Below are positions 3 through 13,630 of a stretch of 13,884 bases of DNA, piece after piece. The notes beneath the pieces were generated by a model, which made no database searches, had not been told where the DNA came from, and was given only the letters and a program-made list of their open reading frames with translations. This DNA is from Candidatus Eiseniibacteriota bacterium (GTDB taxonomy: Bacteria > Eisenbacteria > RBG-16-71-46). Position 1 is the stretch's first letter, and each line of letters begins with the position of its first letter. The translations under genes were made by a program, and so were the position numbers. The stretch covers positions 1 to 13,884 of the forward strand of contig JANLWX010000022.1 in assembly GCA_031364845.1 (NCBI GenBank), read 5' to 3'.

Positions 3-887
3 ACGCGCGACAACGTGGCGCGCGCGATCTACACCGAGGTCCGCGAAGGCCGCGGCTCGCCGCACGGCGGTGTGTTCCTCGATATCGCCTACCTCCCGGC
101 CGAGCGCGTGAGGAAGAAGCTGCCGTCGATGTACCACCAGTTCCTGGAACTGGCCGACGTCGACATCACGAAGACGCCTATGGAAGTCGGACCGACGATG
201 CACTATCTGATGGGCGGCGTGCGCGTCGAGCCCGACACCGCGGCGGCGACGGTGCCCGGTCTGTTCGCTGCCGGCGAAGTCGCGGCCGGCCTGCACGGCG
301 CGAACCGGCTCGGCGGCAACTCGCTCTCGGATCTCATCGTGTTCGGTCGGCGCGCCGGCATGGGTGCGGCACTTCACGCGCGCGGCATGACCGGGAGCCT
401 CGAGATTTCGGAAGCCGACATCGAAGCCGAGATGCGCGACGTGCTCGCGCCGTTCGAGCGCGCGAGCGGCGAGAGTCCGTTCGCATTGCAGCGCGAGCTG
501 CAGCAGTGCATGAGCGCCTACGTCGGCATCTTCCGCACCGAGTCCGATCTCGAAACCGCCGTTCGGACACTCGGTGAGCTCAAGGCCCGCGCGCAGAATC
601 TGCGCGTCGAGGGCGGACGCGTGTTCAACCCGGGCTGGCATCTGGCGCGCGACCTGCGCAACATGCTGGTCTGTTCGGAAGCGGTCGCGCGTTCGGCACT
701 GCTGCGCAAGGAGAGCCGTGGTGCTCATTCGCGGCTCGATCACACGGCGATGAACGACGCGTTCGGAAAAGTGAATCACTGCGCGAAACGCGCGGGCGAT
801 GGGATGAGCGTCGCGCCGACGCCGCTGCCCGAGATGCCCCAAGATCTGAAAGTGCTGTTCGAGGCCGCGAAGGAGATGGCGAAATGA
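3..887 (+). CDS. sdhA: Succinate dehydrogenase/fumarate reductase flavoprotein subunit, C-terminal part (5' end lies outside the window)
   Basis: The frame is open from position 3 (TRDNVARAIY...). Flavoprotein motifs present: PTMHYLMGG, GLFAAGEVAAGLHGANRLGGNSLSDL and RKESRGAH. The stop overlaps the start of the Fe-S subunit gene (ATGA at 884-887). Confidence 0.95.
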   Translation, partial: TRDNVARAIYTEVREGRGSPHGGVFLDIAYLPAERVRKKLPSMYHQFLELADVDITKTPMEVGPTMHYLMGGVRVEPDTAAATVPGLFAAGEVAAGLHGANRLGGNSLSDLIVFGRRAGMGAALHARGMTGSLEISEADIEAEMRDVLAPFERASGESPFALQRELQQCMSAYVGIFRTESDLETAVRTLGELKARAQNLRVEGGRVFNPGWHLARDLRNMLVCSEAVARSALLRKESRGAHSRLDHTAMNDAFGKVNHCAKRAGDGMSVAPTPLPEMPQDLKVLFEAAKEMAK

Positions 888-1699
888 CCGACGCGCGATC
901 GACGCCGCACCAGGCGGCAATGGAATCGACCACCGGAGCCGCGGCTCACGGCGGCCAGCGCGAAGTCACGATGCGCGTGTTCCGTGGCGGGCCCGAAGGC
1001 GGCGAACTCGTGGACTATCAGGTGCCGGTCGAGACCGGCATGGTGGTGCTCGATGCGATCCACTGGATCCAGGGCAACCGCGAGCCGGATCTCGCCGTGC
1101 GGTGGAACTGCAAGGCCGCCAAGTGCGGCTCGTGCAGCGCTGAGGTCAACGGCAAGCCCGCGCTGATGTGCAAATCGCGCATGGATCACATGGCCCAGGG
1201 CGAGCCGATCGTCGTGCGCCCGATGAAGACGTTCCCGGTGGTGAAGGACCTCGTCACCGACGTGCGCTGGAACTACGAGGTCAACAAGCGCATCAAGCCG
1301 TTCACTCCGAAGGCCGGCGCCGAATGGAAGTGGTACCAGCACGACATCGACCGCGTGCAGGAATTCCGCAAGTGCATCGAATGCTTCCTGTGCCAGGACG
1401 TGTGCCACGTGCTGCGCAGCCACGAGCTGAAGCACGAGTTCGCCGGCCCGCGCTTCTTCGTGCGCGTCGCGGGGCTCGAGATGCATCCGATCGACGACGC
1501 GAACCGGCTCGAATATCTCAAGGACAATGCCGGCATCGGGCTGTGCAACATCACCAAGTGCTGCTCGGAAGTGTGCCCGGAGTCGATCACGATCACGGAC
1601 AACGCGATCATCCCGCTCAAGGAGCGTGTGGTCGACGAGTATTACGATCCGCTCAAGATCGTGTGGCGGACGATGACCGGCGGCGGCAAGAAGAGCTGA
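884..1699 (+). CDS. sdhB: Succinate dehydrogenase/fumarate reductase iron-sulfur subunit
   Basis: 2Fe-2S motif WNCKAAKCGSC...ALMC, plus CIECFLCQDVC and CNITKCCSEVCP cluster motifs. Coupled to sdhA by the ATGA overlap. The true start could be a later ATG (920 or 971). Confidence 0.95.
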   Translation: MTDARSTPHQAAMESTTGAAAHGGQREVTMRVFRGGPEGGELVDYQVPVETGMVVLDAIHWIQGNREPDLAVRWNCKAAKCGSCSAEVNGKPALMCKSRMDHMAQGEPIVVRPMKTFPVVKDLVTDVRWNYEVNKRIKPFTPKAGAEWKWYQHDIDRVQEFRKCIECFLCQDVCHVLRSHELKHEFAGPRFFVRVAGLEMHPIDDANRLEYLKDNAGIGLCNITKCCSEVCPESITITDNAIIPLKERVVDEYYDPLKIVWRTMTGGGKKS

Positions 1700-1740: not shown

Positions 1741-1768
1741 ACGGGGCGTCCAGAAATGGGCGCCCCGT
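1741..1768 (+). terminator. Stem-loop after sdhB, probable intrinsic terminator or 3' stabilising hairpin
   Basis: ACGGGGCGTCCA-GAAA-TGGGCGCCCCGT: 12-bp stem with one G-U pair and a GNRA tetraloop, 41 nt after the sdhB stop. The U-tract is weak (TTCGTCAT). Confidence 0.7.
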
Positions 1769-1855: not shown

Positions 1856-1871
1856 CGGCACGGACGATGCT
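1856..1871 (+). promoter_or_regulatory. Putative sigma54 (RpoN) -24/-12 promoter for the small-peptide array
   Basis: CGGCACGGACGATGCT versus consensus TGGCACG-N4-TTGCW. GG at 1857-1858 and GC at 1869-1870 are exactly 10 nt apart. It lies between the sdhB hairpin and the first small ORF. Confidence 0.6.
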
Positions 1872-1973: not shown

Positions 1974-2237
1974 ATGCGCCCACTCGCGTGCCGCATGACG
2001 GTCAGCGCGCTTCTGTTTGCTTCGTTCCTCACACCCGCCGCACTCGCTGCGGATTCGGATACGACCATGGTCCGTCACGGGCCGCCGCGGGCTCACGGCA
2101 GCATCGCCATCGCGTCATTCCGTGTCGGCGCGCGACTCGCGAGCCGCATCCGCTTCCCCGCCGGACTGGGCCTCGGCCTCGCCGTCTGCGCGGCCGGCAT
2201 CGCGCTCGAAATCGACGACTACGTGCGGTCGCGCTGA
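1974..2237 (+). CDS. Small secreted/membrane peptide P1 (87 aa) with signal peptide and hydrophobic Cys-containing C-terminus
   Basis: GGAG at 1962-1965 precedes ATG 1974, which I prefer to the track start at 1848. The N-terminus MRPLACRMTVSALLFASFLTPAALA-A resembles a Sec signal. The C-terminus GLGLGLAVCAAGIALEIDD resembles those of the downstream peptides. Confidence 0.6.
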   Translation: MRPLACRMTVSALLFASFLTPAALAADSDTTMVRHGPPRAHGSIAIASFRVGARLASRIRFPAGLGLGLAVCAAGIALEIDDYVRSR

Positions 2238-2296
2238 GCGCCGCACGCTCTCGCCCCCCGGCAATTCACGCATCACTCAACTGAAGGGAGTGGACC

Positions 2297-2422
2297 GTGT
2301 TTGGAATCGACACGCTGATGGGGAAGCTCGTGTGCGCCTTCGCCACCGGCTTGGGCTCGTGGACCGGCAACCGCGGCGACGCCGCCGCGCTGTGCCTGTT
2401 CATCCAGGCCAACGACCTGTGA
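2297..2422 (+). CDS. Small peptide P2 (41 aa), no signal peptide, C-x19-C-x6-DL core
   Basis: Not in the ORF track; translated by hand. RBS GAAGGGAG at 2283-2290, GTG start, sequence MFGIDTLMGKLVCAFATGLGSWTGNRGDAAALCLFIQANDL*. Codons are mostly G/C-ending like the host genes. Confidence 0.7.
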   Translation: MFGIDTLMGKLVCAFATGLGSWTGNRGDAAALCLFIQANDL

Positions 2423-2441
2423 TTCTCGACGGAGGACTCTC

Positions 2442-2687
2442 ATGAACAAGGAACGCCATTCGATGCGCAGGCTCGCCGCGAGCCTGATGCTGACCGCGGT
2501 ACTCGCCGCCACATCCGTCGTGGTGGCTCACGCGGCCGGCGGCCGTGGTTCCGATCCGGGCGTCGGAGTGAACGGCTTCTGGGGCGGAGTGACCTGCGGC
2601 TTCTCGCTGGTGCTGGCGAAGGCCGACCCGAGTTTCTACGGGAGCGCGCTGCTGATCTGCGCGCGGGTCTTCCTGCTCGACCCGTAA
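2442..2687 (+). CDS. Small secreted peptide P3 (81 aa), signal peptide plus C-x20-C-x6-DP core
   Basis: RBS GGAGG at 2431-2435. Signal-like N-terminus ending VAHA-A. Core CGFSLVLAKADPSFYGSALLICARVFLLDP*. Confidence 0.8.
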   Translation: MNKERHSMRRLAASLMLTAVLAATSVVVAHAAGGRGSDPGVGVNGFWGGVTCGFSLVLAKADPSFYGSALLICARVFLLDP

Positions 2688-2695
2688 TCGATGCC

Positions 2696-2722
2696 GTGCC
2701 GCCCGCCGCGATGGGGCGGCAT
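2696..2722 (+). other. Intergenic stem-loop between P3 and P4
   Basis: TGCCGCCC (2697-2704) pairs with GGGCGGCA (2714-2721), with a flanking G-U pair. It starts 9 nt after the P3 stop. Confidence 0.45.
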
Positions 2723-2762
2723 TCCCACCGGTTCGCAAACCTCCTGAACTCGAGGGGACACC

Positions 2763-2903
2763 ATGAACACTGGAGTCGTCACAGATCTGGGCCGCGGCTC
2801 GGCCATGGGATGTGCGATGGGAGTGGCGATCGGGATCGGTCTGCCGGTCTTCCTCCCGGGCGCCTTTCTGGTCTGCGTCCTGCTGATGATCACCGATCCC
2901 TGA
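2763..2903 (+). CDS. Small peptide P4 (46 aa), no signal peptide, C-x20-C-x6-DP core
   Basis: Not in the ORF track; translated by hand. RBS GAGGGG at 2752-2757, sequence MNTGVVTDLGRGSAMGCAMGVAIGIGLPVFLPGAFLVCVLLMITDP*. It aligns without gaps to the P3 core. Confidence 0.75.
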   Translation: MNTGVVTDLGRGSAMGCAMGVAIGIGLPVFLPGAFLVCVLLMITDP

Positions 2904-2924: not shown

Positions 2925-2969
2925 ACCGGCCGGGAAGGCCGGTCTGCCCACCCTGTGGACGGGCCGGCC
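2925..2969 (+). terminator. GC-rich hairpin(s) closing the peptide array
   Basis: GGCCGGTCTGCCCA (2937-2950) pairs with TGGACGGGCCGGCC (2956-2969) with two G-U pairs and one mismatch. An alternative perfect 7-bp stem ACCGGCC/GGCCGGT spans 2925-2943. No U-tract. Confidence 0.4.
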
Positions 2970-3104
2970 CTCGGCATGTCCCTGGGCCGCGCACCACCGT
3001 AGCCCGGGCGACAGCTCGTGCGTGCTTGCCCGGTTTCGGGCGAGCGGGAGCCGCCGGCGCGCTGGCCCTTTCCCCTCCTCACTGAGCACCGCCCTGAGCA
3101 TTTC

Positions 3105-3232: not shown

Positions 3233-5296
3233 ATGGCCCCCGAAACGGTTCGCACCCTGGACGGCTGCATGGCGCCCGCGCCGATCGCACGCCGCGATAC
3301 GCCGATGCCCCGCGGTCTCGAATCGCGCGCGATTCTCCGCTGGGCCGCGCGCTTCGCCGCGATCGCGATCGTCGGCGTGCTCGCCGCGACGATGACGCCC
3401 TCGCCGGCGCACGCCATCAGGGTGACCGCGTGGAATCTGCTCAACTACCCCAATCTCGACCTTCCGGGCCGTCAGCAGCACTTCCGCACCGTGATGCAGA
3501 ATCTGGACACCGACATCCTCATGGTGCAGGAACTCAAGTCCGCGGCCGGCGCCGATTCGTTCCTGCTGAACGTGCTTCGCGTCGCCAATCCGACACGTCG
3601 CTGGAAGGATGCCGGGTTCATCCTGAGCACCGAGAGCACGATCTACTACGATTCGCTGAAGGTCGCGGTATCCAACCAGACGGCCATCAATACCGGCGGA
3701 CCACGACGTGTCTACCAGCTCGTGGCCCAGCCGCTCGGTTACACCGCCTCCGCCGCCCGGTTACGCGTCTATTCCGTGCACTACAACGCGGGGACGGCCG
3801 ACACCGCGCTGCGCCGCGCCGAGTGCACGAACTTGAGAACGGTCCTCAACAACCAGTCGACGTTCACACCGACGATTCTGGTCGGAGGCGACACGAATTT
3901 CTATGGTGACTGGGAGAGCGGCTATCAGGTTCTTCTCGCCCATCAGGCCGACAACGACGGTCGCTTGAAGGACTCGGTGAGCCTCCCCGGCACCTGGAAC
4001 CAGTTCGCATACCGCTGCTACCACAGCCAGTGCCCCTGCAATTCTCCGGGGTGTCCGTCTGGCTTCTCGGGCGGCGGGCTCGACGACCGCTTCGATTTTT
4101 TCATTTACTCGTATCCCACGCAGGATGGCGAGCAGGTCGATATCCTCTCCCAGTTTCCCTACGGCAACGACTGCTCGCATTTCAACGAGTCCGTCGATCA
4201 GGACGGCCGCAACAGTGCCGTTCCACTCGCGGTCGCGACCGCGCTGCGGCTCGCCTCCGACCATCTCCCCGCGGTCGCTTCGCTGCAGCTTCCGGCGAAG
4301 ATCGCAACCTCGACTTCACAGCTCGATTTCGGAACGGTGCTCATCGGGGCGCCCACGCCGTCGCAGAACCTCACGGTCACGAATGCGGGCACGTTCCTGC
4401 CGATCGACGAACTCGACTACAGCGTCACCATGCCTGGCGGCTTCAGCGGACCCACAGGGCAAACCTTCCAGGCGATCGCCACCAATCCCGGCAACGTGCA
4501 CACGATCACGCTCGATGTCTCGAGCGAAGGCGTAAGAGGTGGAGCGATGGCGATCGCGAGCGATGACGTCGATTCGCTGACCAAGTTCGTGCTGCTATCC
4601 GGAACCGTGCTGCGCCACGCCACGGCGTCGCTCGACTCGAGCGAACTCCGAACAGCGGAGTCGATGACGTTCGGCCTGCACGGGCCGGGCGGGTTCAGCG
4701 ACCTTCCGGTGCGCATCCACAACCTCGGCTACGACGCGCTCCAGGCGCGGCTTTCGGTCTCGAACGCGGTCATCACGGGCGGTGGCGGGCGCTTCACGAT
4801 CGTCGGCGGATTCGCGCCCGGGCTCGTTTCGGGAAGCGCGCGCACGCTCTCGATCCACTTCGACGACACCGGTGCCACGCCCGATCAGTACTACACCGCG
4901 ACGCTCACGATCACCTCGGCCGACGAGCCGCTGCCGGGAGCAACGACGCAGCCCAACATCGTCGTGACGCTTCGCGCGTTCCCGTCGAGCACCACCGATG
5001 CGACCGGCTCCCTGCCCACCGCACTCGCGTTCCTGCCCGCGCGGCCGAATCCGCTCGGCGACGGAACGACGATGCGTTTCGAACTTCCGCGCGCGCAGCG
5101 CGTCTCGCTCCAGATCTTCGATCTGAGCGGCCGCCGCGTGGCGGGGCTGGCCGAGGGTCTGCGCGAAGCAGGACGTCATGACGTGCGCTGGAACGCGACC
5201 GACGACCACGGGGTCCGCGTGGGCGCCGGACTCTACTTCGCGCGCTTCAGCACCCCCGGACTCGAACGCAGCCAGCGCCTGATCGTGCTGCCGTAA
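3233..5296 (+). CDS. Secreted endonuclease/exonuclease/phosphatase (DNase I-like) protein with two Ig-like domains and a C-terminal FlgD-Ig/T9SS-like domain
   Basis: GGAG RBS before ATG 3233; signal region ending PAHA-I. EEP catalytic motifs TAWN, DILMVQE, SVH, GGDTN, DRFD and SDHLP. Two beta-rich repeats (LDFGTV...LTVTNAG; MTFG...VRIHNLG) resemble choice-of-anchor D/ASH-type Ig folds. Tail PNPL...FEL...VSLQIFDLSGRRV...W...G.RVGAGLYFAR. Confidence 0.88.
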   Translation: MAPETVRTLDGCMAPAPIARRDTPMPRGLESRAILRWAARFAAIAIVGVLAATMTPSPAHAIRVTAWNLLNYPNLDLPGRQQHFRTVMQNLDTDILMVQELKSAAGADSFLLNVLRVANPTRRWKDAGFILSTESTIYYDSLKVAVSNQTAINTGGPRRVYQLVAQPLGYTASAARLRVYSVHYNAGTADTALRRAECTNLRTVLNNQSTFTPTILVGGDTNFYGDWESGYQVLLAHQADNDGRLKDSVSLPGTWNQFAYRCYHSQCPCNSPGCPSGFSGGGLDDRFDFFIYSYPTQDGEQVDILSQFPYGNDCSHFNESVDQDGRNSAVPLAVATALRLASDHLPAVASLQLPAKIATSTSQLDFGTVLIGAPTPSQNLTVTNAGTFLPIDELDYSVTMPGGFSGPTGQTFQAIATNPGNVHTITLDVSSEGVRGGAMAIASDDVDSLTKFVLLSGTVLRHATASLDSSELRTAESMTFGLHGPGGFSDLPVRIHNLGYDALQARLSVSNAVITGGGGRFTIVGGFAPGLVSGSARTLSIHFDDTGATPDQYYTATLTITSADEPLPGATTQPNIVVTLRAFPSSTTDATGSLPTALAFLPARPNPLGDGTTMRFELPRAQRVSLQIFDLSGRRVAGLAEGLREAGRHDVRWNATDDHGVRVGAGLYFARFSTPGLERSQRLIVLP

Positions 5297-5359: not shown

Positions 5360-5566
5360 CTATGGCGCTTCGGGCTCCGACTTCCGCTCGTACCCGCCGC
5401 ACTCGATGACCGGCAGCGCCGGATACTTGGGGAATCGGGGATCGACGGCCGAGAGCCCGCACAGGAGAAACACGCTGCGCGGTGTCTCGATCCGCCTCGA
5501 GTGCCGGCAGGTGAGGCACAGCCCCACACGCTGAGCGCCCGCTTTCGGCGGGTTCGACTCGCTCAC
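5360..5566 (-). CDS. Small hypothetical 4-Cys protein (68 aa), probable metal-binding
   Basis: C-terminal part of track ORF 5360..5842, with a likely GTG start at 5566. Sequence includes GLCLTCRHSRRIETPRSVFLLCGLSAVDPRFPKYPALPVIECGGY, giving CxxC-x15-C-x19-C. I recall similar DPRFPKYP.LPV..C hypothetical proteins but cannot verify this here. Confidence 0.7.
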   Translation of the reverse strand: MSESNPPKAGAQRVGLCLTCRHSRRIETPRSVFLLCGLSAVDPRFPKYPALPVIECGGYERKSEPEAP

Positions 5567-5764: not shown

Positions 5765-5914
5765 ATGCAACCGATCCTTACCGGCCTCACCATCGTGCTG
5801 ATCTTCGCGGGCGCGTTCACCGCGCGCGACGTCGTGCGCCACGAAACGATCCTCGTGTCGTCACTGGGATTGATCCTGATCGGCATCGCGGTACGTCAGC
5901 GCTTCAAACGCTGA
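5765..5914 (+). CDS. 49-aa membrane microprotein with two hydrophobic segments and a basic tail
   Basis: MQPILTGLTIVLIFAGAFTARDVVRHETILVSSLGLILIGIAVRQRFKR*. GGGG RBS-like run before ATG 5765, host-like codons and an upstream sigma54-like site. Overlaps the otsB 3' end by 11 nt. Confidence 0.6.
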   Translation: MQPILTGLTIVLIFAGAFTARDVVRHETILVSSLGLILIGIAVRQRFKR

Positions 5915-6791
5915 GCCGCGCCGGGATCTCCGCATCGGGTCCTTCGGGGACCTCGGCATCACGCTCCGCGGACGAAGGCTCCGGAGTTTCGCCGGGCTTC
6001 GCATCGAGGCCCTTGGCCTCGCGCCATTCGCGTTCGAGCCACTCCAGGAACCACGTCACCTGCTGGGGATCGGTGAGCGCGTATTCCGCCCGCGACGCAA
6101 AGCGTCCGATCGCCACCGCGAAACCGTCGCGCTCACGCACGCGCGGATACACCGCCTCGTCATGGGCATCGTCGCCCATGTAGAACGACACCGCGGAGCG
6201 GTTCGCGTCGACCCACTCGGCGAAGGCGTGCGACTTGTCGCGATCGACCGCCGGCAGCACTTCGAACACCTTCTTGCCATGCAGAAGTCGCGCGTTCTGT
6301 TCCTCGCCCGCGAAGCGGCGGCGCAGACCCGAGCAGAACGCAGGCTGGAACCGTTCGCTCACCGCGCGATAGTGAACCGCGAACGCCGGACCCTTGTCCT
6401 CGAGCCACGCGCCTTCGAAGCGCGCGCACCACTCGTTCATCGACACGCGCACGCGCTCGGGCAGCGCCTGGTCCGCGGACACGTGCAGGCGCCGCTGGCC
6501 GTGGATGTCCAGCGTCTCGAGTCCCGCGCTTCCCGACAGGAACACACCGTCAAACGGCATCAACTCGCGCAGATCGTCGAGTTTGCGGCCCGAGAGAATT
6601 CCGACTTCGACACCCGGAAGTGCCGTGAGCCGTTCGAGCGCCACGCGCGTTCGCGGTGCGAGATCGGCCTGCGCGGGATGGATCACGATCTCGGTGAGCG
6701 TGCCGTCGAAGTCGAGTCCGACGTACAGCTGATTCGTCTCGCGCATGCGCGCGGCGATCGTCTCGAGGTGGAGCCACAGAGGTTTGAGCAT
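5904..6791 (-). CDS. otsB: Trehalose-6-phosphate phosphatase (HAD IIB family)
   Basis: HAD motifs LDFDGTL, ILSGR, DKS and MGDDAHDE, plus OtsB-typical LEDKG...VHYR and GKKVFEVLP. Start placed at ATG 6791 from a GGGAGA RBS about 10 nt upstream; 6800 is an alternative and the track start 6953 is unlikely. Confidence 0.9.
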   Translation of the reverse strand: MLKPLWLHLETIAARMRETNQLYVGLDFDGTLTEIVIHPAQADLAPRTRVALERLTALPGVEVGILSGRKLDDLRELMPFDGVFLSGSAGLETLDIHGQRRLHVSADQALPERVRVSMNEWCARFEGAWLEDKGPAFAVHYRAVSERFQPAFCSGLRRRFAGEEQNARLLHGKKVFEVLPAVDRDKSHAFAEWVDANRSAVSFYMGDDAHDEAVYPRVRERDGFAVAIGRFASRAEYALTDPQQVTWFLEWLEREWREAKGLDAKPGETPEPSSAERDAEVPEGPDAEIPARLSV

Positions 6792-6857
6792 GGGCCGCAT
6801 TCTCCCACGTCGGACCCTTCCGCGCACAGCCCGGGAAGGGGCGCATATGTTCAATGA

Positions 6858-6887
6858 TTGCAAGCTCCCGGCGGCGCGACGTATCCT
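6858..6887 (+). promoter_or_regulatory. Putative sigma70-type promoter for the otsA operon
   Basis: TTGCAA-N18-TATCCT in the AT-richer divergent spacer. It is consistent with an otsA start downstream at TTG 6953. Confidence 0.45.
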
Positions 6888-6952
6888 TCGCGTCCCTGTT
6901 TCATGGGCCCTGGACGATCCACGAACTGCCCGCCCACCCGCGAGGACCCGCA

Positions 6953-8554
6953 TTGGTATTGTCCGATCGAGTGCGTGAAGCGTTGTCCCGCGCGGCCGAC
7001 AAGTCTCGCGCGCGCGCCAGCGGTCCCAAGCGAACGACCCAGGAAGATCTGGTGGCGTGGGCGCGCGGGCACCTGAGCCATCGACCGATCGTGATCGTCT
7101 CGAATCGCGAACCGTGGTCGCACGTGCGCGACGGCGAGTCGATCCGCGCGGTGCGCAACGCGGGCGGCCTGACGGTGGCGCTCGACGCCGTGGCGCAGGC
7201 GCTGGGCGGAACCTGGGTCGCCAGCGGCAGCGGCGATGCCGATCGCGAAACGGTGGACGAGCGCAGCCGCGTCGGATGCCCGCCCGATCGGCCGAGCTAC
7301 CAGCTGCGGCGCATCTGGCTCACCGAGGAAGATCACGCGCTCTACTATTCCGGCGCCTCGAACGGCGCGCTGTGGCCGCTGTGTCACATCGCGTACGTGC
7401 GGCCGCAGTTCCGCCGCGAAGAGTGGGAGCGCTACCGCGACGTGAACCAGCGCTTCGCCGACGCGGTGCTGGAGGAGGTCGGCGACGAGCCCGCGATGGT
7501 GTTCCTTCAGGATTACCATCTGGCGCTCGCCGCGCGTTTTCTCAAGAAGCGCCGGCCCGATCTTCAGATCGCGACGTTCTGGCACATCCCGTGGCCCAAC
7601 GCCGAGGTGTTCCGCATCTGCCCGTGGCGCGACGAGCTGCTCGACGGCCTGCTCGCGAACGACTTCATCGGATTCCATATTCGCGGCCACGCGCTCAACT
7701 TCCTGCAATCCGTCGCTTCGACGCTCGAAGCGCGCGTCGACCTCGAGCAGCTGCTGGTCGATCGCGGCGGCAGCCGCACGTGGGTGCGCGCGTTTCCGAT
7801 CGGCGTGCCGGCAGACGAGATCGACGCGCTCGCCAATCATCCGGACACCGCGGCCACCGAACGCCGGTTGCGCCAGGAGATGAGCCTCGAGGGCATGAAG
7901 GTCGGCCTCGGCGTCGATCGCATGGACTACACCAAAGGTGTTCCCGAGCGCCTCGAAGCGCTCGAGTTGTTCTTCGTCGAGCATCCGGAGTGGGTCGGGC
8001 GTTTCGCGTTCATCCAGATCGCGGTGCCCTCGCGCATCGAGCTCGAGGAGTATCGCGCGGTCCAGCGTCGCACGCGCGAGATGGTCGATCAGATCAACCA
8101 GCGGTTTCCCGCGCCGCACGGGCACACGGTCCATCTGATCGAATCGACGCTCGATTTCCGCCAGCTGGTCCCGTTCTACCGCATGGCCGACCTGTGTGCC
8201 GTGACGTCGTTGCACGACGGCATGAACCTGGTCGCCAAGGAGTACGTCGCCGCCTCGACCGACGGCGACGGCGCGCTGATCCTCTCGCCGTTCACCGGTG
8301 CGGCGCGCGAATTCGAGCGTGCCTTCATCGCTTCGCCGTATGATCGCGAAGGCACCGCCGCCGCCTATCACGCGGCACTCACCGAATCCGACGAATCGCG
8401 GCGCGAGCGCATGGGAGCGCTCCGTGAGATCGTGCAGCGCCGCAACATCTACGACTGGGCGATCGAAGTGCTGGATTCGATCCAGCGCCTGACGCTGTCG
8501 ACCCCGGTCGAATCCGCGCCGGCGGAACCGGGCGATTCGAAGGAGGTCACGTGA
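6953..8554 (+). CDS. otsA: Trehalose-6-phosphate synthase (GT20 family)
   Basis: Motifs IVSNREP, AGGL, ALWPLCH, QDYHL, FWHIPWP, DFIGFH, AFPIG, GVDRMDYTKG, IAVPSR, SLHDGMNLVAKEYVA and LILSPFTGAA. The ORF is open from 6854; I prefer TTG 6953 because of the GAGGA RBS at 6942-6946 and the promoter position. Confidence 0.92.
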   Translation: MVLSDRVREALSRAADKSRARASGPKRTTQEDLVAWARGHLSHRPIVIVSNREPWSHVRDGESIRAVRNAGGLTVALDAVAQALGGTWVASGSGDADRETVDERSRVGCPPDRPSYQLRRIWLTEEDHALYYSGASNGALWPLCHIAYVRPQFRREEWERYRDVNQRFADAVLEEVGDEPAMVFLQDYHLALAARFLKKRRPDLQIATFWHIPWPNAEVFRICPWRDELLDGLLANDFIGFHIRGHALNFLQSVASTLEARVDLEQLLVDRGGSRTWVRAFPIGVPADEIDALANHPDTAATERRLRQEMSLEGMKVGLGVDRMDYTKGVPERLEALELFFVEHPEWVGRFAFIQIAVPSRIELEEYRAVQRRTREMVDQINQRFPAPHGHTVHLIESTLDFRQLVPFYRMADLCAVTSLHDGMNLVAKEYVAASTDGDGALILSPFTGAAREFERAFIASPYDREGTAAAYHAALTESDESRRERMGALREIVQRRNIYDWAIEVLDSIQRLTLSTPVESAPAEPGDSKEVT

Positions 8555-9249
8555 CGCTCGTCTTGCTTCAGATCACGTCGCTCGACGAGCTGGGCGCGCG
8601 CGTTTCGACGACGCTGTCGGGCGCGGGGCTGTGGGCGCTCGATGCGCTGATCGCGATCGCGATCGTGCTGCTCGGGTGGGCGATTGCGCGCGGTGTCGCG
8701 GTCGTGCTGCGTGCGGCACTGCGCACGTTCCGCTTCAACGACGGCATTCGCAGCCTGCTCGGCGACACGCCGCTGCGCTACGAGCCCGCCGCACTCGCGG
8801 CGTGGGTCACCCAGTGGACGCTGGTGATGCTGACCGTGATGCTCGCCGCCGACGTGCTGGGATTCGATCTTAGCCGCTCGGTCTCGGACCGCCTCGGCGA
8901 GCTGCTGCCGCGCGTCACGGCGGCGACCATCGTGCTGGTCGCGGGGATCGCGGTCGCGATGGCGCTCGGGTTCGCGACGCGCCGGTTGTTCGAAAGCGCC
9001 GGATTCAGCGGCGCGATCCTGCGCGGGCGCGTGGTGACGGGCACGCTCAGCGCGTTCGCAGTGCTGCTCGCGCTCGAACAGCTCGGCGTGGCCGCCCAGT
9101 TGATCGTCGCACTCGGCGTCACCGCGGTGGCAGCGGCGGGGCTCGGCCTGGCCCTCGCGTTCGGACTCGGCTGCCGCGATCTGGTGCGCGACTTCGTGGT
9201 CGAGATGCTGCGTTCGATCGACGACGACACGCCGCGCCAGCCGAAGTAG
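8551..9249 (+). CDS. MscS transmembrane-helix-repeat (CmpX-like) membrane protein lacking the cytoplasmic MscS domain
   Basis: AAGGAGG RBS; GTGA overlap with the otsA stop. Repeated units (AIAIVLLGWAIAR / LPRVTAATIVLVAGIAVA) and C-terminal LALEQLGVA...GLALAFGLGCRDLVRDF typical of MscS TM2-TM3. Confidence 0.75.
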   Translation: MTLVLLQITSLDELGARVSTTLSGAGLWALDALIAIAIVLLGWAIARGVAVVLRAALRTFRFNDGIRSLLGDTPLRYEPAALAAWVTQWTLVMLTVMLAADVLGFDLSRSVSDRLGELLPRVTAATIVLVAGIAVAMALGFATRRLFESAGFSGAILRGRVVTGTLSAFAVLLALEQLGVAAQLIVALGVTAVAAAGLGLALAFGLGCRDLVRDFVVEMLRSIDDDTPRQPK

Positions 9250-9258
9250 CCATCCTGA

Positions 9259-11466
9259 ATGAGCGCGCGACGCCCGCCACGTCCTGATCCGCGCCCGCGT
9301 GCCGGTGGCCGTGAGGATTCCGTGCGCGCCCGTCCCGGCGGCGGCTCCGGCTTTCATCTCGATGCCCCATCCGGCGTGCGCCCGCTGAGCGAACGCGCAT
9401 TCGCGATCGCCGCCGGAGTCGTTGGTGCTGCGTTCGCGGTCGTCGCGCTCTACTTCGTGTTCGGTCCGCACCAGCTCGGCGACTACATGACCGAGACCGA
9501 CTTCTACGGCGCCTACTCGCAGGGCGCGCGCATGGTGCAGAGCGGGCAGCTCGATCCGTCGCGCTATGGCGTGATCGGACCGGGCTACGAGATCGCGCTG
9601 GCGCTCGCGGGCTTCGTCGTGCGCGACCTGTTCCTCGCCGCGGAGCTGCTGTCGTTCGCCTCGTCGATCGCGGTGCTCGCGTTGTGGTTCGTGCTGCTGC
9701 GCCGCCGCGCGAACGCGATGACGGGGTTCTTCGCGGTGCTGTTCATCGCCGCCAACGCGCACTTCCTGCGTCACGCGTATTCGGCGGCGACCGACACGTT
9801 CGCAATCGCGCTCCAGGCGGGAGCGTTGTTCGCGCTGCTCGCGCCGCGCGGAGCGCGCGGGAGTGTGGACTCTTCAACGGCGACCGCGCCCAACTCCGAT
9901 GTGCCGGCGGCCGCGCCCGCGACGTCCGACCGCCGCTGGGCAGTCGCCGGCATCCTCACCGCGTTCGCGTTCCTCACGCGCTACAACGCGATCTCGCTCG
10001 TCCCCGCAAGCATCGTCGCGATCCTCGCGGGTGCCACCGCCGCTCCGCGCCCCCTGCGTGCCGCCGCGTTCTACCTCGGCGGATTCTTCCTCGTCGTCCT
10101 GCCGTGGGTGCTGTATTCGCTGTCGCACGGCGGATCGTTCGCATTCCAGCTCCACCACAACATCGCCTACGAAGTCTTCGCCAAGGCACGCGGCATCGCG
10201 TGGGACGACTATCAACGCACGATGCAGCCGCAATTCCACAACCTGTGGGACGTGATCGCGAAAGATCCCAAGGCCGTGTTCTCGCGCATGCTGTTCAACT
10301 CGTGGGACCACCTGCGCCTCGACGCGCAACTGTTGCTCACGGTGCCGCTCGCGATCGCGGCGTTCGCGGGCATCGTGATCGGCCGCGGCGATGGCGCGCT
10401 GCGGCGCCTGTGGCCGTTGTGGCTCACCGGGGCACTGCTGTTCCTCACGCTGGTACCGGTGTTCTATTCCGAACGCTATTCGCTGGCATTGCTGCCGATG
10501 TACGCGAGCCTCGCGGCACTCGCGTTCGCCTCGCCGCAGCTCGCGTTCGCGCTGGGTTCGGGACGCGTGTGGCTCAAGCCGCTGCTCGCGATCATCCCCG
10601 TCATCTCGCTGATCATGGCGTCGGTGAAAGTGCAGGCGCGCATGATCGACCAGCTTCCGGTCGAAGTTCTTACGGCCGCAAAGACGCTGCGCGAGTTGCG
10701 CCGGCCGGGTGATCGCGTGATCGCGCGCAAGAGCCACATCGCCTACCACGGCGGCGTCGAGCCGCTGGCGTTTCCGTTCGCCGACTCGCTCGAAACACTC
10801 GCGCGCTTCACGCACGAGCACAACGTGCGCTGGATCTATTTCTCGTGGCCCGAAGCCGAGACGCGTCCGGGGCTCTGGTACCTGCTCGACACGACTGCGG
10901 TCGTGCCCGGTCTCACGCCGCGCGTGGTGACTCAGCCGCATCCCGCCGTGCTGTATGAAGTGGGCAAGGACTTCGGCATCCGGCCCGAGTGGTTGAAGAA
11001 CGACACTTTGATGATCTATCACAAGCTGCGAGCCCAGCTGATGGTCGACGGCGGCAATCCGACCTATCTCTACAACTACGCCGTGATCGCGCGCAGCGTC
11101 GGCAAGCTCGACGATGCGCGCGGCGCGCTCGAGCGGCTGCTGACGCGCGTGCCGACCGACGCCGGAGCGCTCGCGCTGCTCGGCGACATCCTGCTGGTGC
11201 AGAACGATCCCGCGCGCGCCGGGCGCGTGTTCGAGCGCCTGATCGCGGTCGATCCGACGAATCCTCTCGGAGGCCTCGGGCGCGGATGGGCATTGCTGCT
11301 GCAAGGACGCGACGCGGATGCCGCGCGCGCGTGGCGCCCGCTGATCGGCGTTGCGACCGACTACGGCACGCTCGCGCGCATGGCGGAGCTGTACTCCACG
11401 CTCGGGGACCAGGCGTCCGAAGTCGCCGCGCGCCGCCGCATCATGCAACTCGGAGGTGGACAGTGA
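9259..11466 (+). CDS. Polytopic membrane glycosyltransferase-like protein (ArnT/PMT, GT-C fold) with C-terminal TPR repeats
   Basis: Acidic first loop (ETDFYGAY), then GPGY, ATDT, AFLTRYN and ERYSLALLP motifs with many TM segments. Tail has TPR-like helices (GKLDDARGALERLLTRVPTDAGALALLGDILL). Confidence 0.72.
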   Translation: MSARRPPRPDPRPRAGGREDSVRARPGGGSGFHLDAPSGVRPLSERAFAIAAGVVGAAFAVVALYFVFGPHQLGDYMTETDFYGAYSQGARMVQSGQLDPSRYGVIGPGYEIALALAGFVVRDLFLAAELLSFASSIAVLALWFVLLRRRANAMTGFFAVLFIAANAHFLRHAYSAATDTFAIALQAGALFALLAPRGARGSVDSSTATAPNSDVPAAAPATSDRRWAVAGILTAFAFLTRYNAISLVPASIVAILAGATAAPRPLRAAAFYLGGFFLVVLPWVLYSLSHGGSFAFQLHHNIAYEVFAKARGIAWDDYQRTMQPQFHNLWDVIAKDPKAVFSRMLFNSWDHLRLDAQLLLTVPLAIAAFAGIVIGRGDGALRRLWPLWLTGALLFLTLVPVFYSERYSLALLPMYASLAALAFASPQLAFALGSGRVWLKPLLAIIPVISLIMASVKVQARMIDQLPVEVLTAAKTLRELRRPGDRVIARKSHIAYHGGVEPLAFPFADSLETLARFTHEHNVRWIYFSWPEAETRPGLWYLLDTTAVVPGLTPRVVTQPHPAVLYEVGKDFGIRPEWLKNDTLMIYHKLRAQLMVDGGNPTYLYNYAVIARSVGKLDDARGALERLLTRVPTDAGALALLGDILLVQNDPARAGRVFERLIAVDPTNPLGGLGRGWALLLQGRDADAARAWRPLIGVATDYGTLARMAELYSTLGDQASEVAARRRIMQLGGGQ

Positions 11467-12400: not shown

Positions 12401-13630
12401 TTAGCCTCCATAGCGACGCCGGCGACGCTTGCGTAGAGCAGGATCAACGATGGGGTCGAGCATTCCGAACTGACGAGCATTTCGCTCGGCAGCCCGCCTA
12501 AGATCGATCACTCCGATCGGCACCCAAGCAAAGTGAACTCGCCAGCGACCGTCGTCGCATGGCTCGAGTCCAACTCTTTCACCCGCGAGGCAGCCGCTGA
12601 CGTACCACTGAGTGGTGCCGAACGAGATCACGCCGTTGGGATAGGCGATGCGGCTCTCGAAGTGGGCCGGGTACTCAGGCTCAGGAAGCCGACGAGGATA
12701 CGTTCGAAGCGAAGATCGGTAGAGCGAAGCGGGCACTACTTGTCCCAGAGCTTCATGCGGCCGCTGCTCGTTGTACTCGATCTGGAACCGATCGAACGCA
12801 CGCTGCTGAGCACTGAAGCTCGAACGTGGTGGCCTGGCGGTCTCGGCTTTCAAAGTCCGATGCATGCGCTCATGGCGCCCGTTCTGATCGGGCCGGCCCG
12901 GCATGATGCGTTCGGGACGGATCCCGAGTCGGATCCACCAGATCGATAGGCGCGAGAGTCCGCCCGGCGCGAGTGTCGAGAACGGCGGCCCGTTGTCTGT
13001 GCGGATCGCTCGCGGCAGTCCGTACTCGTTGAACGCCGACTCGAAGACGCGCCTGGCGTACTGCGACAACGGACGCCGGAGCCCGCGACAGCGAAGCAGG
13101 AAGCGACTGTACCCATCACTGATCGTCAGGGGATGACAGCGCTCGCCCCCCACACCGCCGACGGTGAAGCAGCCTTTGAAGTCGGCGCACCAGACGGCGT
13201 TCGGCGCGACGTACTCACGCAGTCGAGCTGCGTAAGGTGAACTACGCCGAACCCGCCGACGCGGGCGAACGAGTCCATGACGCTTCAGGATGTCGCCGAT
13301 TGTACTGGCCGCGGGGAGTTCGATGCGCGACCGCTGCCGCTTTAGCACTGCTCGGACCTTGCGAGGGCCCCAGCGTGGATGGCGACGACGGATCGCAATG
13401 ATCGATTGCACGATGTCTGCCGCGACCGCGTTGGGGTGAGCGTGTGGAGCCCGTGACATCTCTTCCAAGGCCGACACTCCTTCCGCCTCGTAGCGACGAA
13501 CCCACTTGTAGCCGGTCTTCCTGCTGATCCCGAAGTCCAGACACAGATCACTGAAGTTCGCCTCGTACTCCAGATACGCCGCGATGAACTTTACTCGTTC
13601 GGACATCCAGTCGGTCCTCGCCCATGGCAT
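12401..13630 (-). CDS. IS481-family DDE transposase (HTH plus integrase core)
   Basis: MPW start, HTH region GISRKTGYKWVRRY, HPRWGPRK, and DDE residues in WCADFKG, IRTDNGPPF and QNGRHERMHRTLK, followed by YNEQRPHEAL. Strong RBS GAAGGAGG. Confidence 0.95.
   Translation of the reverse strand: MPWARTDWMSERVKFIAAYLEYEANFSDLCLDFGISRKTGYKWVRRYEAEGVSALEEMSRAPHAHPNAVAADIVQSIIAIRRRHPRWGPRKVRAVLKRQRSRIELPAASTIGDILKRHGLVRPRRRVRRSSPYAARLREYVAPNAVWCADFKGCFTVGGVGGERCHPLTISDGYSRFLLRCRGLRRPLSQYARRVFESAFNEYGLPRAIRTDNGPPFSTLAPGGLSRLSIWWIRLGIRPERIMPGRPDQNGRHERMHRTLKAETARPPRSSFSAQQRAFDRFQIEYNEQRPHEALGQVVPASLYRSSLRTYPRRLPEPEYPAHFESRIAYPNGVISFGTTQWYVSGCLAGERVGLEPCDDGRWRVHFAWVPIGVIDLRRAAERNARQFGMLDPIVDPALRKRRRRRYGG

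What the first reader, a model, noticed from the sequence alone, without database searches (positions are those of the whole stretch)
1974..2903. Array of four small hydrophobic peptides, three sharing a C-x19/20-C-x6-D[P/L]-stop core: candidate undescribed peptide system
Seen: four co-oriented small ORFs, each with its own RBS; two (2297-2422, 2763-2903) are below the ORF-track cutoff. Cores are P2 CAFATGLGSWTGNRGDAAALCLFIQANDL*, P3 CGFSLVLAKADPSFYGSALLICARVFLLDP* and P4 CAMGVAIGIGLPVFLPGAFLVCVLLMITDP*. P3 and P4 align without gaps with 8 of 30 identities (C, P, F, A, L, C, D, P). In P2-P4 the stop falls exactly 8 residues after the second Cys. P1 keeps only the second half (LAVC-x6-E) and has Ser (ASF) roughly where the first Cys would be. 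I see no obvious DNA-level repeat, so the conservation is at protein level. Inference: a diversified paralogous family of disulfide-stapled membrane-active helical hairpins, such as bacteriocin/microcin-like toxins, RiPP precursors or signalling peptides. I recognise no named family, and no maturase or dedicated transporter is in this window.
Basis: partly seen in the sequence, partly recalled or inferred. Interest (0 to 1): 0.85.

Follow-up and report, generated by a model that had tools for sequence, protein, structure and literature searches.

The report
Sigma-54 operon of cysteine-stapled hairpin peptides
Four tiny related genes in an uncultured sediment bacterium form a conserved, uncatalogued family of two-cysteine hydrophobic peptides, two with a predicted export signal and two without, behind a likely sigma-54 promoter; they likely fold into disulfide-stapled hairpins that would assemble together in a membrane.

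Summary
The array is real and conserved. P2-P4 carry C-x19/20-C-x6-D-[P/L]-stop as described. They are the only hydrophobic matches in the 4.6-Mb genome (Ca. Eisenbacteria). Syntenic arrays follow sdhB in 3 of 30 family loci (two genera); 3 of 206 phylum genomes carry it.

Seventy distinct homologues fall into four orthologue groups plus one extra, with cores under purifying selection. The family motif is C-x18-21-C-x6-[D/E]; the last residue is free. P1 has Phe, not Ser, at Cys1.

New here: P1/P3 carry Sec-type signal peptides (35 of 36); P2/P4/X never do (0 of 34). A sigma-54 promoter motif precedes 3 of 3 arrays against 2 of 27 empty sites. AlphaFold gives helical hairpins with the cysteines symmetric about the turn.

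No family in Pfam, NCBIfam, PHROGs or PDB. No maturase or exporter nearby; no SPASM or YcaO enzyme found; DsbA-VKOR and YidC are present.

Best guess (0.38): the hairpins co-assemble in the producer's own inner membrane. Close rival (0.30): a gallocin-A-like exported toxin pair with hairpin-mimic immunity. Function, expression and binding are untested.

The parts
1741..1768 (+). GC-rich hairpin after the sdhB stop; likely terminator that separates the array from sdhAB (it has no T-run)
   Evidence: z = -4.4; not called by the terminator scan
1856..1871 (+). sigma-54 (-24/-12, GG-N10-GC) promoter-like site, 118 nt upstream of P1
   Evidence: same motif upstream of the arrays in G001 and G013; 3 of 3 array loci vs 2 of 27 array-less loci with the fixed consensus
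1974..2237 (+). P1, 87 aa: predicted Sec signal peptide (about aa 1-25), variable spacer, hairpin core with Cys1 replaced by Phe49, Cys72, acidic tail
   Evidence: 18 distinct homologues, 7 with both Cys
2297..2422 (+). P2, 41 aa, no signal peptide: C13-x19-C33-x6-D, invariant Arg in the loop
   Evidence: 16 distinct homologues; the open frame extends only 4 codons upstream
2442..2687 (+). P3, 81 aa: predicted Sec signal peptide (aa 1-31), spacer, hairpin C52-x20-C73-x6-D
   Evidence: 18 distinct homologues
2763..2903 (+). P4, 46 aa, no signal peptide: the most hydrophobic hairpin, C17-x20-C38-x6-D, with invariant G-x-x-x-G
   Evidence: 17 distinct homologues
2926..2975 (+). hairpin after P4, possible end of the transcript
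   Evidence: z = -2.1; 4 of 200 shuffles fold as well
884..1699 (+). sdhB (iron-sulfur subunit): upstream landmark in all three array-bearing genomes; probably not part of the system

Best explanation
The array is one likely sigma-54-driven operon of four paralogous peptides, each predicted to fold into a short helical hairpin that would be stapled by a disulfide, and the hairpins would co-assemble in the producer's own inner membrane as a regulated pore or leak. Shown: the genes, their homology, conservation and synteny, the promoter motif, and the split into signal-bearing (P1, P3) and signal-less (P2, P4) members. Predicted: the hairpin fold with the two Cys facing each other. Inferred: P1 and P3 need Sec because they carry a longer polar N-terminal spacer. 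P2 and P4, whose N-tails are only 9-14 residues, would be inserted by YidC with both ends outside, as ATP synthase subunit c is. All four would then present their Cys pair to the periplasmic DsbA-VKOR oxidase, so only housekeeping machinery is needed. The marginally hydrophobic hairpins would be stable only as a hetero-oligomer. The physiological output (depolarisation or solute leak under an envelope or starvation signal) is a guess.
For: Both Cys are kept in 34 of 34 signal-less members, which is hard to explain if they stayed in the reducing cytoplasm. Charge pattern fits ends-out, loop-in for P1, P2 and X: acidic or near-neutral termini and about one Arg/Lys in the loop. DsbA-like plus VKOR domains and YidC are present in all three genomes; subunit c is a YidC-only substrate (PMC9360617, passages). 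No exporter, maturase or unrelated immunity gene lies within about 19 kb either side in G013 or about 16 kb upstream in G001, or in the window. The groups persist as orthologues across two genera at one chromosomal site, in near-equal numbers (18, 16, 18, 17). Cores are under purifying selection: identity 0.95 vs 0.72 for the signal peptide in P3, and 0.90 vs 0.41 for the spacer in P1; 10 of 11 listed strain substitutions in the P1 core are synonymous. Array GC (0.674) matches the window (0.669), and no real match was found in viral contigs or plasmids. Hairpin models.
Against: Each hairpin leg has only about 14-17 apolar residues, and on a recalled insertion scale only P4 helix 2 is favourable; P2 helix 2 and P1 helix 1 are clearly unfavourable. 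P4 has no positive charge in its loop and P3's loop is net neutral or acidic, so the topology signal is partial. Subunit make-up varies (P1+P4 in G001; X+P1+P2+P3 in G013; all four in G000), which a fixed complex would not predict. P1 lacks Cys1 in 11 of 18 homologues. The patchy spread (3 of 206 genomes) suits an antagonism locus as well. DsbA-VKOR and YidC are housekeeping genes also found in array-less genomes or controls, so they permit the model but do not favour it. There is no expression evidence.
Confidence: 0.38

Rival explanations
1. Gallocin-A-like antagonism system. P1 and P3 are Sec-exported, disulfide-stapled hairpins that reach other cells (for example in outer-membrane vesicles) and permeabilise their membranes. 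The signal-less paralogues P2 and P4/X stay in the producer's membrane as look-alike immunity peptides that block assembly.
For: Gallocin A is two exported, weakly charged, disulfide-stapled helical hairpins plus a hairpin-mimic immunity peptide in one operon (PMC10100652: abstract, passages and section 9). Signal-bearing to signal-less members are 2:2, 1:1 and 2:2 and alternate in the three genomes, fitting modules P1+P4/X and P2+P3. Marginal hydrophobicity, small-xxx-small motifs and a patchy distribution fit bacteriocins.
Against: Sec delivers only to the periplasm of a diderm, and no route across the outer membrane is encoded nearby. No double-glycine leader is conserved; PF10439 was not found in 0 of 5 genomes, though no control genome passed its cut-off either. 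Orthologue groups are stable, GC-typical and at a fixed site rather than mobile. The invariant Cys pair in the supposed immunity peptides is unexplained.
Confidence: 0.3
2. Metal- or redox-binding envelope peptides: the two Cys and the acid two helical turns after Cys2 bind a metal or act as a thiol switch, as part of a sigma-54 envelope-stress response (compare ZraP, recalled).
For: Cys2 is invariant and an acid at Cys2+7 occurs in 68 of 70, on the same helix face. The sigma-54 motif is conserved.
Against: No His or Met ligand is conserved. Cys1 is lost in 11 of 18 P1. No metal-transport gene is a shared neighbour.
Confidence: 0.12
3. Pilin-like or coat-like structural subunits that polymerise into a thin filament or a surface layer.
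For: Signal peptide plus hydrophobic hairpin resembles conjugative pilins in outline (recalled). Sub-threshold hits to TraA (E 0.021, 14.8 bits against a cut-off of 50) and CedA1 (E 0.13). Sigma-54 drives some pilin genes (recalled).
Against: The hits are far below cut-off and cover 25 residues. Cores of about 40 aa are much shorter than such pilins (recalled about 65-70 aa). No assembly genes lie nearby.
Confidence: 0.08
4. RiPP precursors modified by an enzyme encoded elsewhere in the genome (for example Cys-Asp thioether or macrolactam formation).
For: Invariant C-x6-[D/E] next to the C-terminus looks like a reactive pair.
Against: SPASM found in 0 of the 3 array-bearing genomes (completeness 97, 93 and 86%) and YcaO in 0 of 3, with controls ringing. 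No shared leader. The tail after Asp is one residue, too short for a lasso.
Confidence: 0.06
5. Small accessory subunits or regulators of the adjacent succinate dehydrogenase.
For: The array follows sdhB directly in 3 of 3 genomes.
Against: 27 of 30 sdhB loci lack it, the site is otherwise highly variable, and a strong hairpin and a separate promoter motif lie between.
Confidence: 0.05

Closest known systems
Gallocin A (GllA1/GllA2 plus GIP) and the disulfide-hairpin subgroup of class IIb bacteriocins (brochocin C, thermophilin 13, ABP-118), PMC10100652
   Same: Operon of small, weakly charged peptides modelled as antiparallel helical hairpins with two facing Cys; exported members sit beside a non-exported hairpin look-alike; disulfide formation depends on a thioredoxin-like oxidase (abstract, passages and section 9 read).
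   Different: Gallocin uses double-glycine leaders and a dedicated ABC peptidase-exporter in a monoderm. Here the leaders are Sec-type, there is no exporter, and the host is a diderm. The signal-less members are true sequence paralogues that keep both Cys. The promoter looks sigma-54-dependent. No PF10439 match, and no activity shown.
Sec-dependent class IId bacteriocins such as divergicin A and enterocin P (recalled)
   Same: Signal peptide plus a small hydrophobic, Cys-containing mature peptide; no dedicated exporter.
   Different: Monoderm producers, a single structural gene with an unrelated immunity protein; no paralogue array.
Multi-peptide leaderless bacteriocins such as aureocin A70 and garvicin KS (recalled)
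   Same: Tandem array of three or four short related peptide genes.
   Different: All members there are leaderless, cationic and Cys-free, with a transporter in the locus. Here half carry signal peptides, and the P2-P4 cores are mostly neutral or acidic with a Cys pair.
ATP synthase subunit c and other hairpin proteolipids
   Same: Signal-less hydrophobic hairpin inserted by YidC alone that oligomerises in the membrane (PMC9360617, passages); a conserved acid in helix 2.
   Different: No sequence relationship above threshold (best 14.8 bits against a cut-off of 101); legs are much shorter; the acid is at the C-terminal end; Cys pair present.
Class II microcins (MccV type, recalled)
   Same: Small, weakly charged hydrophobic peptides of diderm bacteria, some with a disulfide.
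   Different: They need a double-glycine leader and a peptidase-ABC/MFP/TolC exporter, none of which was found here.

Membership tests
Class IIb two-peptide bacteriocins (gallocin A subgroup) | Double-glycine leader on each peptide | tested here: not met
   FWGG in P3 is not conserved (WAAA, WAHK, WARK in three homologues); P1/P3 have Sec-type signal peptides and P2/P4 no leader
Class IIb two-peptide bacteriocins (gallocin A subgroup) | Dedicated C39-peptidase ABC exporter | tested here: not met
   None in the window or the flanks examined; only weak stand-alone C39-like matches (E 1e-8 to 2e-4), also in 2 of 2 array-less genomes
Class IIb two-peptide bacteriocins (gallocin A subgroup) | Match to PF10439 | tested here: inconclusive
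   No hit for 4 window peptides or 24 family proteins and 0 of 5 genomes, but no control genome passed the cut-off
Class IIb two-peptide bacteriocins (gallocin A subgroup) | Helical hairpin with facing cysteines | tested here: met
   AlphaFold2 models: P3 helices 43-61 and 63-79 with C52/C73; P4 helices 4-26 and 28-44 with C17/C38; pLDDT about 78-84 over the Cys-to-Cys span. The S-S distance itself was not returned
Class IIb two-peptide bacteriocins (gallocin A subgroup) | Two peptides needed together to permeabilise target membranes; cognate immunity | not testable with these tools
   Needs bench work
Sacti-/ranthipeptides and YcaO RiPPs | Radical SAM-SPASM or YcaO maturase in the cluster or genome | tested here: not met
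   0 of 3 array-bearing genomes for each family, controls ringing in 8 and 5 of 14; genomes are 86-97% complete
Lanthipeptides | LanC/LanM cyclase and conserved Ser/Thr partners | tested here: inconclusive
   PF05147 rang in no genome and no control; no Ser/Thr column is conserved across groups
Conjugative or Ced pilins (TraA, CedA1) | Family HMM score above cut-off and adjacent assembly genes | tested here: not met
   14.8 bits against a cut-off of 50; no assembly genes in the flanks
Tat substrates and lipoproteins | Twin-arginine motif or lipobox | tested here: not met
   0 of 70 by a recalled TatFind-type pattern and a lipobox pattern
Sigma-54-dependent operon | -24/-12 GG-N10-GC site upstream; rpoN and activators in the genome | tested here: met
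   Site in 3 of 3 arrays vs 2 of 27 controls; rpoN in 5 of 5 genomes; 25 PF00158 matches in G000, most of them strong. Promoter activity itself is untested

The most novel reading that the evidence does not exclude
A new kind of membrane machine built only from paralogous 40-residue disulfide-stapled hairpins. The subunits are delivered by two different routes (Sec for P1/P3, signal-less insertion for P2/P4), possibly even from opposite faces of the inner membrane as an antiparallel pair. They assemble 1:1 into a minimal channel switched on by sigma-54, with no dedicated enzyme, exporter or immunity gene.
Probability: 0.3. Interest if true: 0.85.

Novelty: new variant of a known kind. Interest (0 to 1): 0.66.

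Why it matters
It is a real, selected peptide family that gene callers partly miss and that no library searched here names, in a phylum with no cultured member to my knowledge (recalled). The pairing of signal-bearing and signal-less paralogues under one likely sigma-54 promoter is unusual. If it is a self-membrane assembly, it would be among the smallest natural hetero-oligomeric pores and a clean test of how routing sets topology. If it is an antagonism system, it would be a Sec-exported, diderm counterpart of the gallocin A class with paralogue-derived immunity, a type that miners keyed on double-glycine leaders and C39 exporters would not find. All parts are 41-62 residues when mature and can be synthesised, so both readings are directly testable. 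Its narrow range (3 of 206 genomes) limits general importance.

Tried and rejected
Family libraries: no hit above cut-off in Pfam, NCBIfam or PHROGs (best a holin at E 0.009, over the signal peptide of one homologue). P2's Toxin_13 match (E 0.036, below cut-off) did not recur in the P2 homologues and was dropped. PDB sequence search: 2 matches at E 2.4 and 4.3.

Fold searches with the P4 model: nothing at E <= 0.001; only generic helical hairpins, best Z 6.5. The P3 model was never searched because the queue was busy. ESM Atlas on whole P3: best 0.78, below the lead level; a second search on the core did not complete.

False leads checked and dropped: metagenome scan hits L064/L065 (L064 read and found to be a ribosomal protein S9-like gene containing LAKADPSF, name recalled; L065 has the same match); viral hits L084/L085; Kocuria L080; 7 weak phylum hits L068-L074 without the second Cys or terminal motif; 2 repeat proteins among the 13 hits (P0032, P0033); 16 weak P3 hits in long open frames or stop-containing frames (not examined singly). 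Plasmids: no match.

Expression: no RNA holder listed among 16 runs. Sigma-70 promoter and T-tract terminator scans found none. No activator-binding palindrome is shared by the three upstream regions. DsbB was not found in 0 of 5 genomes; VKOR stands in.

Literature: 7 searches. No listing pointed to this family. I read passages of PMC7298704 (Eisenbacteria mentioned only for NRPS/PKS potential), PMC7482065, PMC9360617 and PMC10100652; the others only as listings. No supplements were opened; smORF catalogues such as PMC11364881 may hold these sequences unnamed. Earlier scan findings by sequence, relatives and words: nothing.

Full report
Observation. Each has an RBS-like stretch and coding-like GC3. 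The motif C-x19/20-C-x6-D-[P/L]-stop matches 6 of 147,043 stop-to-stop segments in the 4.6-Mb genome: P2, P3, P4 and three Arg-rich shadow frames. P3 and P4 share 8 of 30 ungapped identities. One correction: P1 has Phe49 (TTC), not Ser, at the first-Cys position.

Distribution. A P3 search of 61 genomes gave one clear relative, in G013, another genus of the family. Its locus reads sdhB, four Cys-pair peptides (an extra member X, then P1-, P2- and P3-like), then the same nuclease-like gene. Of 30 sdhB loci fetched from the family (of 32 genomes with a match), 3 carry an array: G000, G013 and G001, the last with P1- and P4-like genes only. Core profiles found the array in 3 of 89 family genomes and 3 of 206 phylum genomes, and these three supplied training rows; 7 further weak hits were noise. 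Only these four copies exist in G000. On an sdhB tree the three genomes fall in one weakly supported subclade (0.63) that also holds two array-less genomes. Protein searches gave 70 distinct sequences after dropping 2 repeat artefacts: 18 P1, 16 P2, 18 P3, 17 P4 and 1 X. The unindexed scan of 1.84 billion representatives returned 11 members and the 2 artefacts. No real match was found in viral contigs or plasmids. Matching contig lengths suggest all four genes on a 2,633-bp contig, P1-P3 on 1,245- and 1,625-bp contigs, and P1, P2 and P4 without a found P3 on two others; this is indirect. A contig from another study bridges P3 and P4 with 3 differences (record 30).

Homology and selection. Profiles built from three groups recognise the fourth. 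All 9 P3 tested beat 300 of 300 shuffles, including shuffles that keep the Cys positions. The 11 P4 and 6 P2 were reached by at most 3 of 300, and 8 of 10 P1 by at most 7 of 300 (the other two by 13 and 32). Profile-profile probabilities are modest: P2-P3 75%, P3-P4 39%, P2-P4 20%, P1-P3 14%, P1-P2 and P1-P4 about 1%. The family motif is C-x18-21-C-x6-[D/E]: both Cys in 59 of 70 (11 P1 lack Cys1), acid at +7 in 68 of 70, and D-[P/L]-stop in only 31 of 51 P2-P4. Cores are far better conserved than leaders: P3 0.95 vs 0.72 among 6 close orthologues, and P1 0.90 vs 0.57 (signal) and 0.41 (spacer) among 5. Among strain differences listed by read-laying, 10 of 11 in the P1 core are synonymous against 9 of 20 in residues 22-37; 16 further rows were not shown and depths are low. 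A second laying gave 5 of 5 codon changes synonymous in the P2-P4 cores. This is not a formal dN/dS, but the genes behave as selected coding sequence.

Anatomy. By a simple heuristic (basic n-region, hydrophobic h-region, A-x-A), 35 of 36 P1/P3 have a Sec-type signal peptide and 0 of 34 P2/P4/X do; none has a Tat motif or lipobox. P2 and P4 have no room upstream for one. The two kinds alternate and are 2:2, 1:1 and 2:2 in the three genomes. AlphaFold2 with shallow alignments (9 and 11 rows) gives a tight hairpin for both peptides modelled: P3 helices 43-61 and 63-79, P4 helices 4-26 and 28-44, with the Cys 10-11 residues either side of the turn (pTM 0.42 and 0.45). The S-S distance was not returned. 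P2-P4 cores are mostly neutral or acidic; the window-type P1 core is +3 to +4 with an amphipathic first helix. Termini are acidic or near neutral, and the loops of P1, P2 and X carry about one basic residue. On a recalled insertion scale only P4 helix 2 is favourable alone.

Regulation. A sigma-54-like GG-N10-GC site lies 118, 65 and 142 nt upstream of the first gene in G000, G001 and G013. With a pattern relaxed after I had seen the sites it occurs in 3 of 3 array loci, 0 of 27 others, and 103 times genome-wide. With the fixed consensus TGGCAC-N5-TTGC (recalled; TGG-N9-TGC in PMC7482065, passages) and up to 2 mismatches, it is 3 of 3 against 2 of 27, with single-locus chance of 0.02-0.06; G000 and G001 are kin, so these are not fully independent. 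rpoN and many activators are present. A strong hairpin follows sdhB and a weaker one follows P4. The array is therefore likely its own conditional transcript.

Machinery. No maturase, exporter or immunity-like gene lies in the window or in the flanks of G013 and G001 that I examined (29 ORFs scanned). SPASM and YcaO were not found in the three genomes; the LanC search was uninformative; C39 matches are weak, stand-alone and shared with array-less genomes. Adjacent or fused DsbA-like and VKOR domains, and YidC, are present.

Mechanism. I favour (0.38) co-assembly in the producer's own inner membrane. P1/P3 would go through Sec and P2/P4 through YidC with short N-tails, as subunit c does (PMC9360617, passages). 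All would be oxidised from the periplasm and form a sigma-54-switched pore or leak. This needs no missing machinery and explains why signal-less members keep both Cys (34 of 34). Against it are short, marginally hydrophobic legs, variable subunit sets and loss of Cys1 in most P1. The close rival (0.30) is a gallocin-A-like system: exported disulfide hairpins plus look-alike immunity peptides (PMC10100652, abstract, passages and section 9). It fits the alternation and patchiness but lacks a way across the outer membrane. Metal or redox binding (0.12), a filament (0.08), a RiPP (0.06) and an SDH accessory (0.05) follow. Expression, disulfides, interaction and activity are all untested.

Comparison and novelty. 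No library names the family, and seven literature searches showed no description (supplements unseen). In architecture it works like the gallocin A subgroup but fails two defining membership features (double-glycine leader, dedicated exporter), so I do not file it there. Verdict: a real, uncatalogued, lineage-restricted peptide system; new variant of a known kind, with a 0.3 chance of being a new kind of minimal membrane machine. Interest 0.66.

Noticed in passing
window 1974-2015 (P1 residues 1-14): 10 of the 11 P1 homologues that lost core Cys1 have a Cys at position 6 of the signal peptide. Unexplained; the remaining core Cys would be unpaired after cleavage and free for an inter-chain disulfide.
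   Followed up: partly
window 5768-5914 (+): Small two-helix hydrophobic ORF of about 49 aa, below the 60-aa cut-off, conserved downstream of the array in G001; not scanned against families.
   Followed up: partly
window about 5360-5530 (-); L021 556-759 (+): Short four-Cys ORF (C-x2-C ... C ... C) conserved between G000 and G001 on the strand opposite the array, possibly zinc-binding.
   Followed up: no
window 3233-5296 (+): Secreted endonuclease/exonuclease/phosphatase-like protein with a C-terminal FlgD Ig-like domain. It follows the array in G000 and G013 and follows sdhB directly, with no array, in G007.
   Followed up: partly
window 5904-11466: Trehalose phosphatase (-) divergent from trehalose synthase (+), then a mechanosensitive-channel-helix protein and a PMT/TPR membrane protein. 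The trehalose pair and channel-helix gene also lie beside the array in G001, but were not seen in the G013 flanks.
   Followed up: partly
window 12401-13630 (-): IS481-family transposase near the contig end.
   Followed up: no
G013:C1:3872746-3873223: rpoN matches in two overlapping pieces in different frames, a frameshift or an assembly error.
   Followed up: no
G000:C164:8368-9900: Module of a secreted protein with a Gly-Gly plus hydrophobic tail, a stand-alone C39-like peptidase and a TPR protein (PA2778/PA2779-like, name recalled). The peptidase and TPR pair also lie about 15 kb from the array in G013, but C39-like genes occur in array-less genomes too.
   Followed up: partly
L020-L049, downstream of sdhB: The site after sdhB is highly variable across the family: HD-GYP-like genes in many genomes, peptidase-, kinase- and nuclease-like genes in others (names recalled from the sequences).
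   Followed up: no
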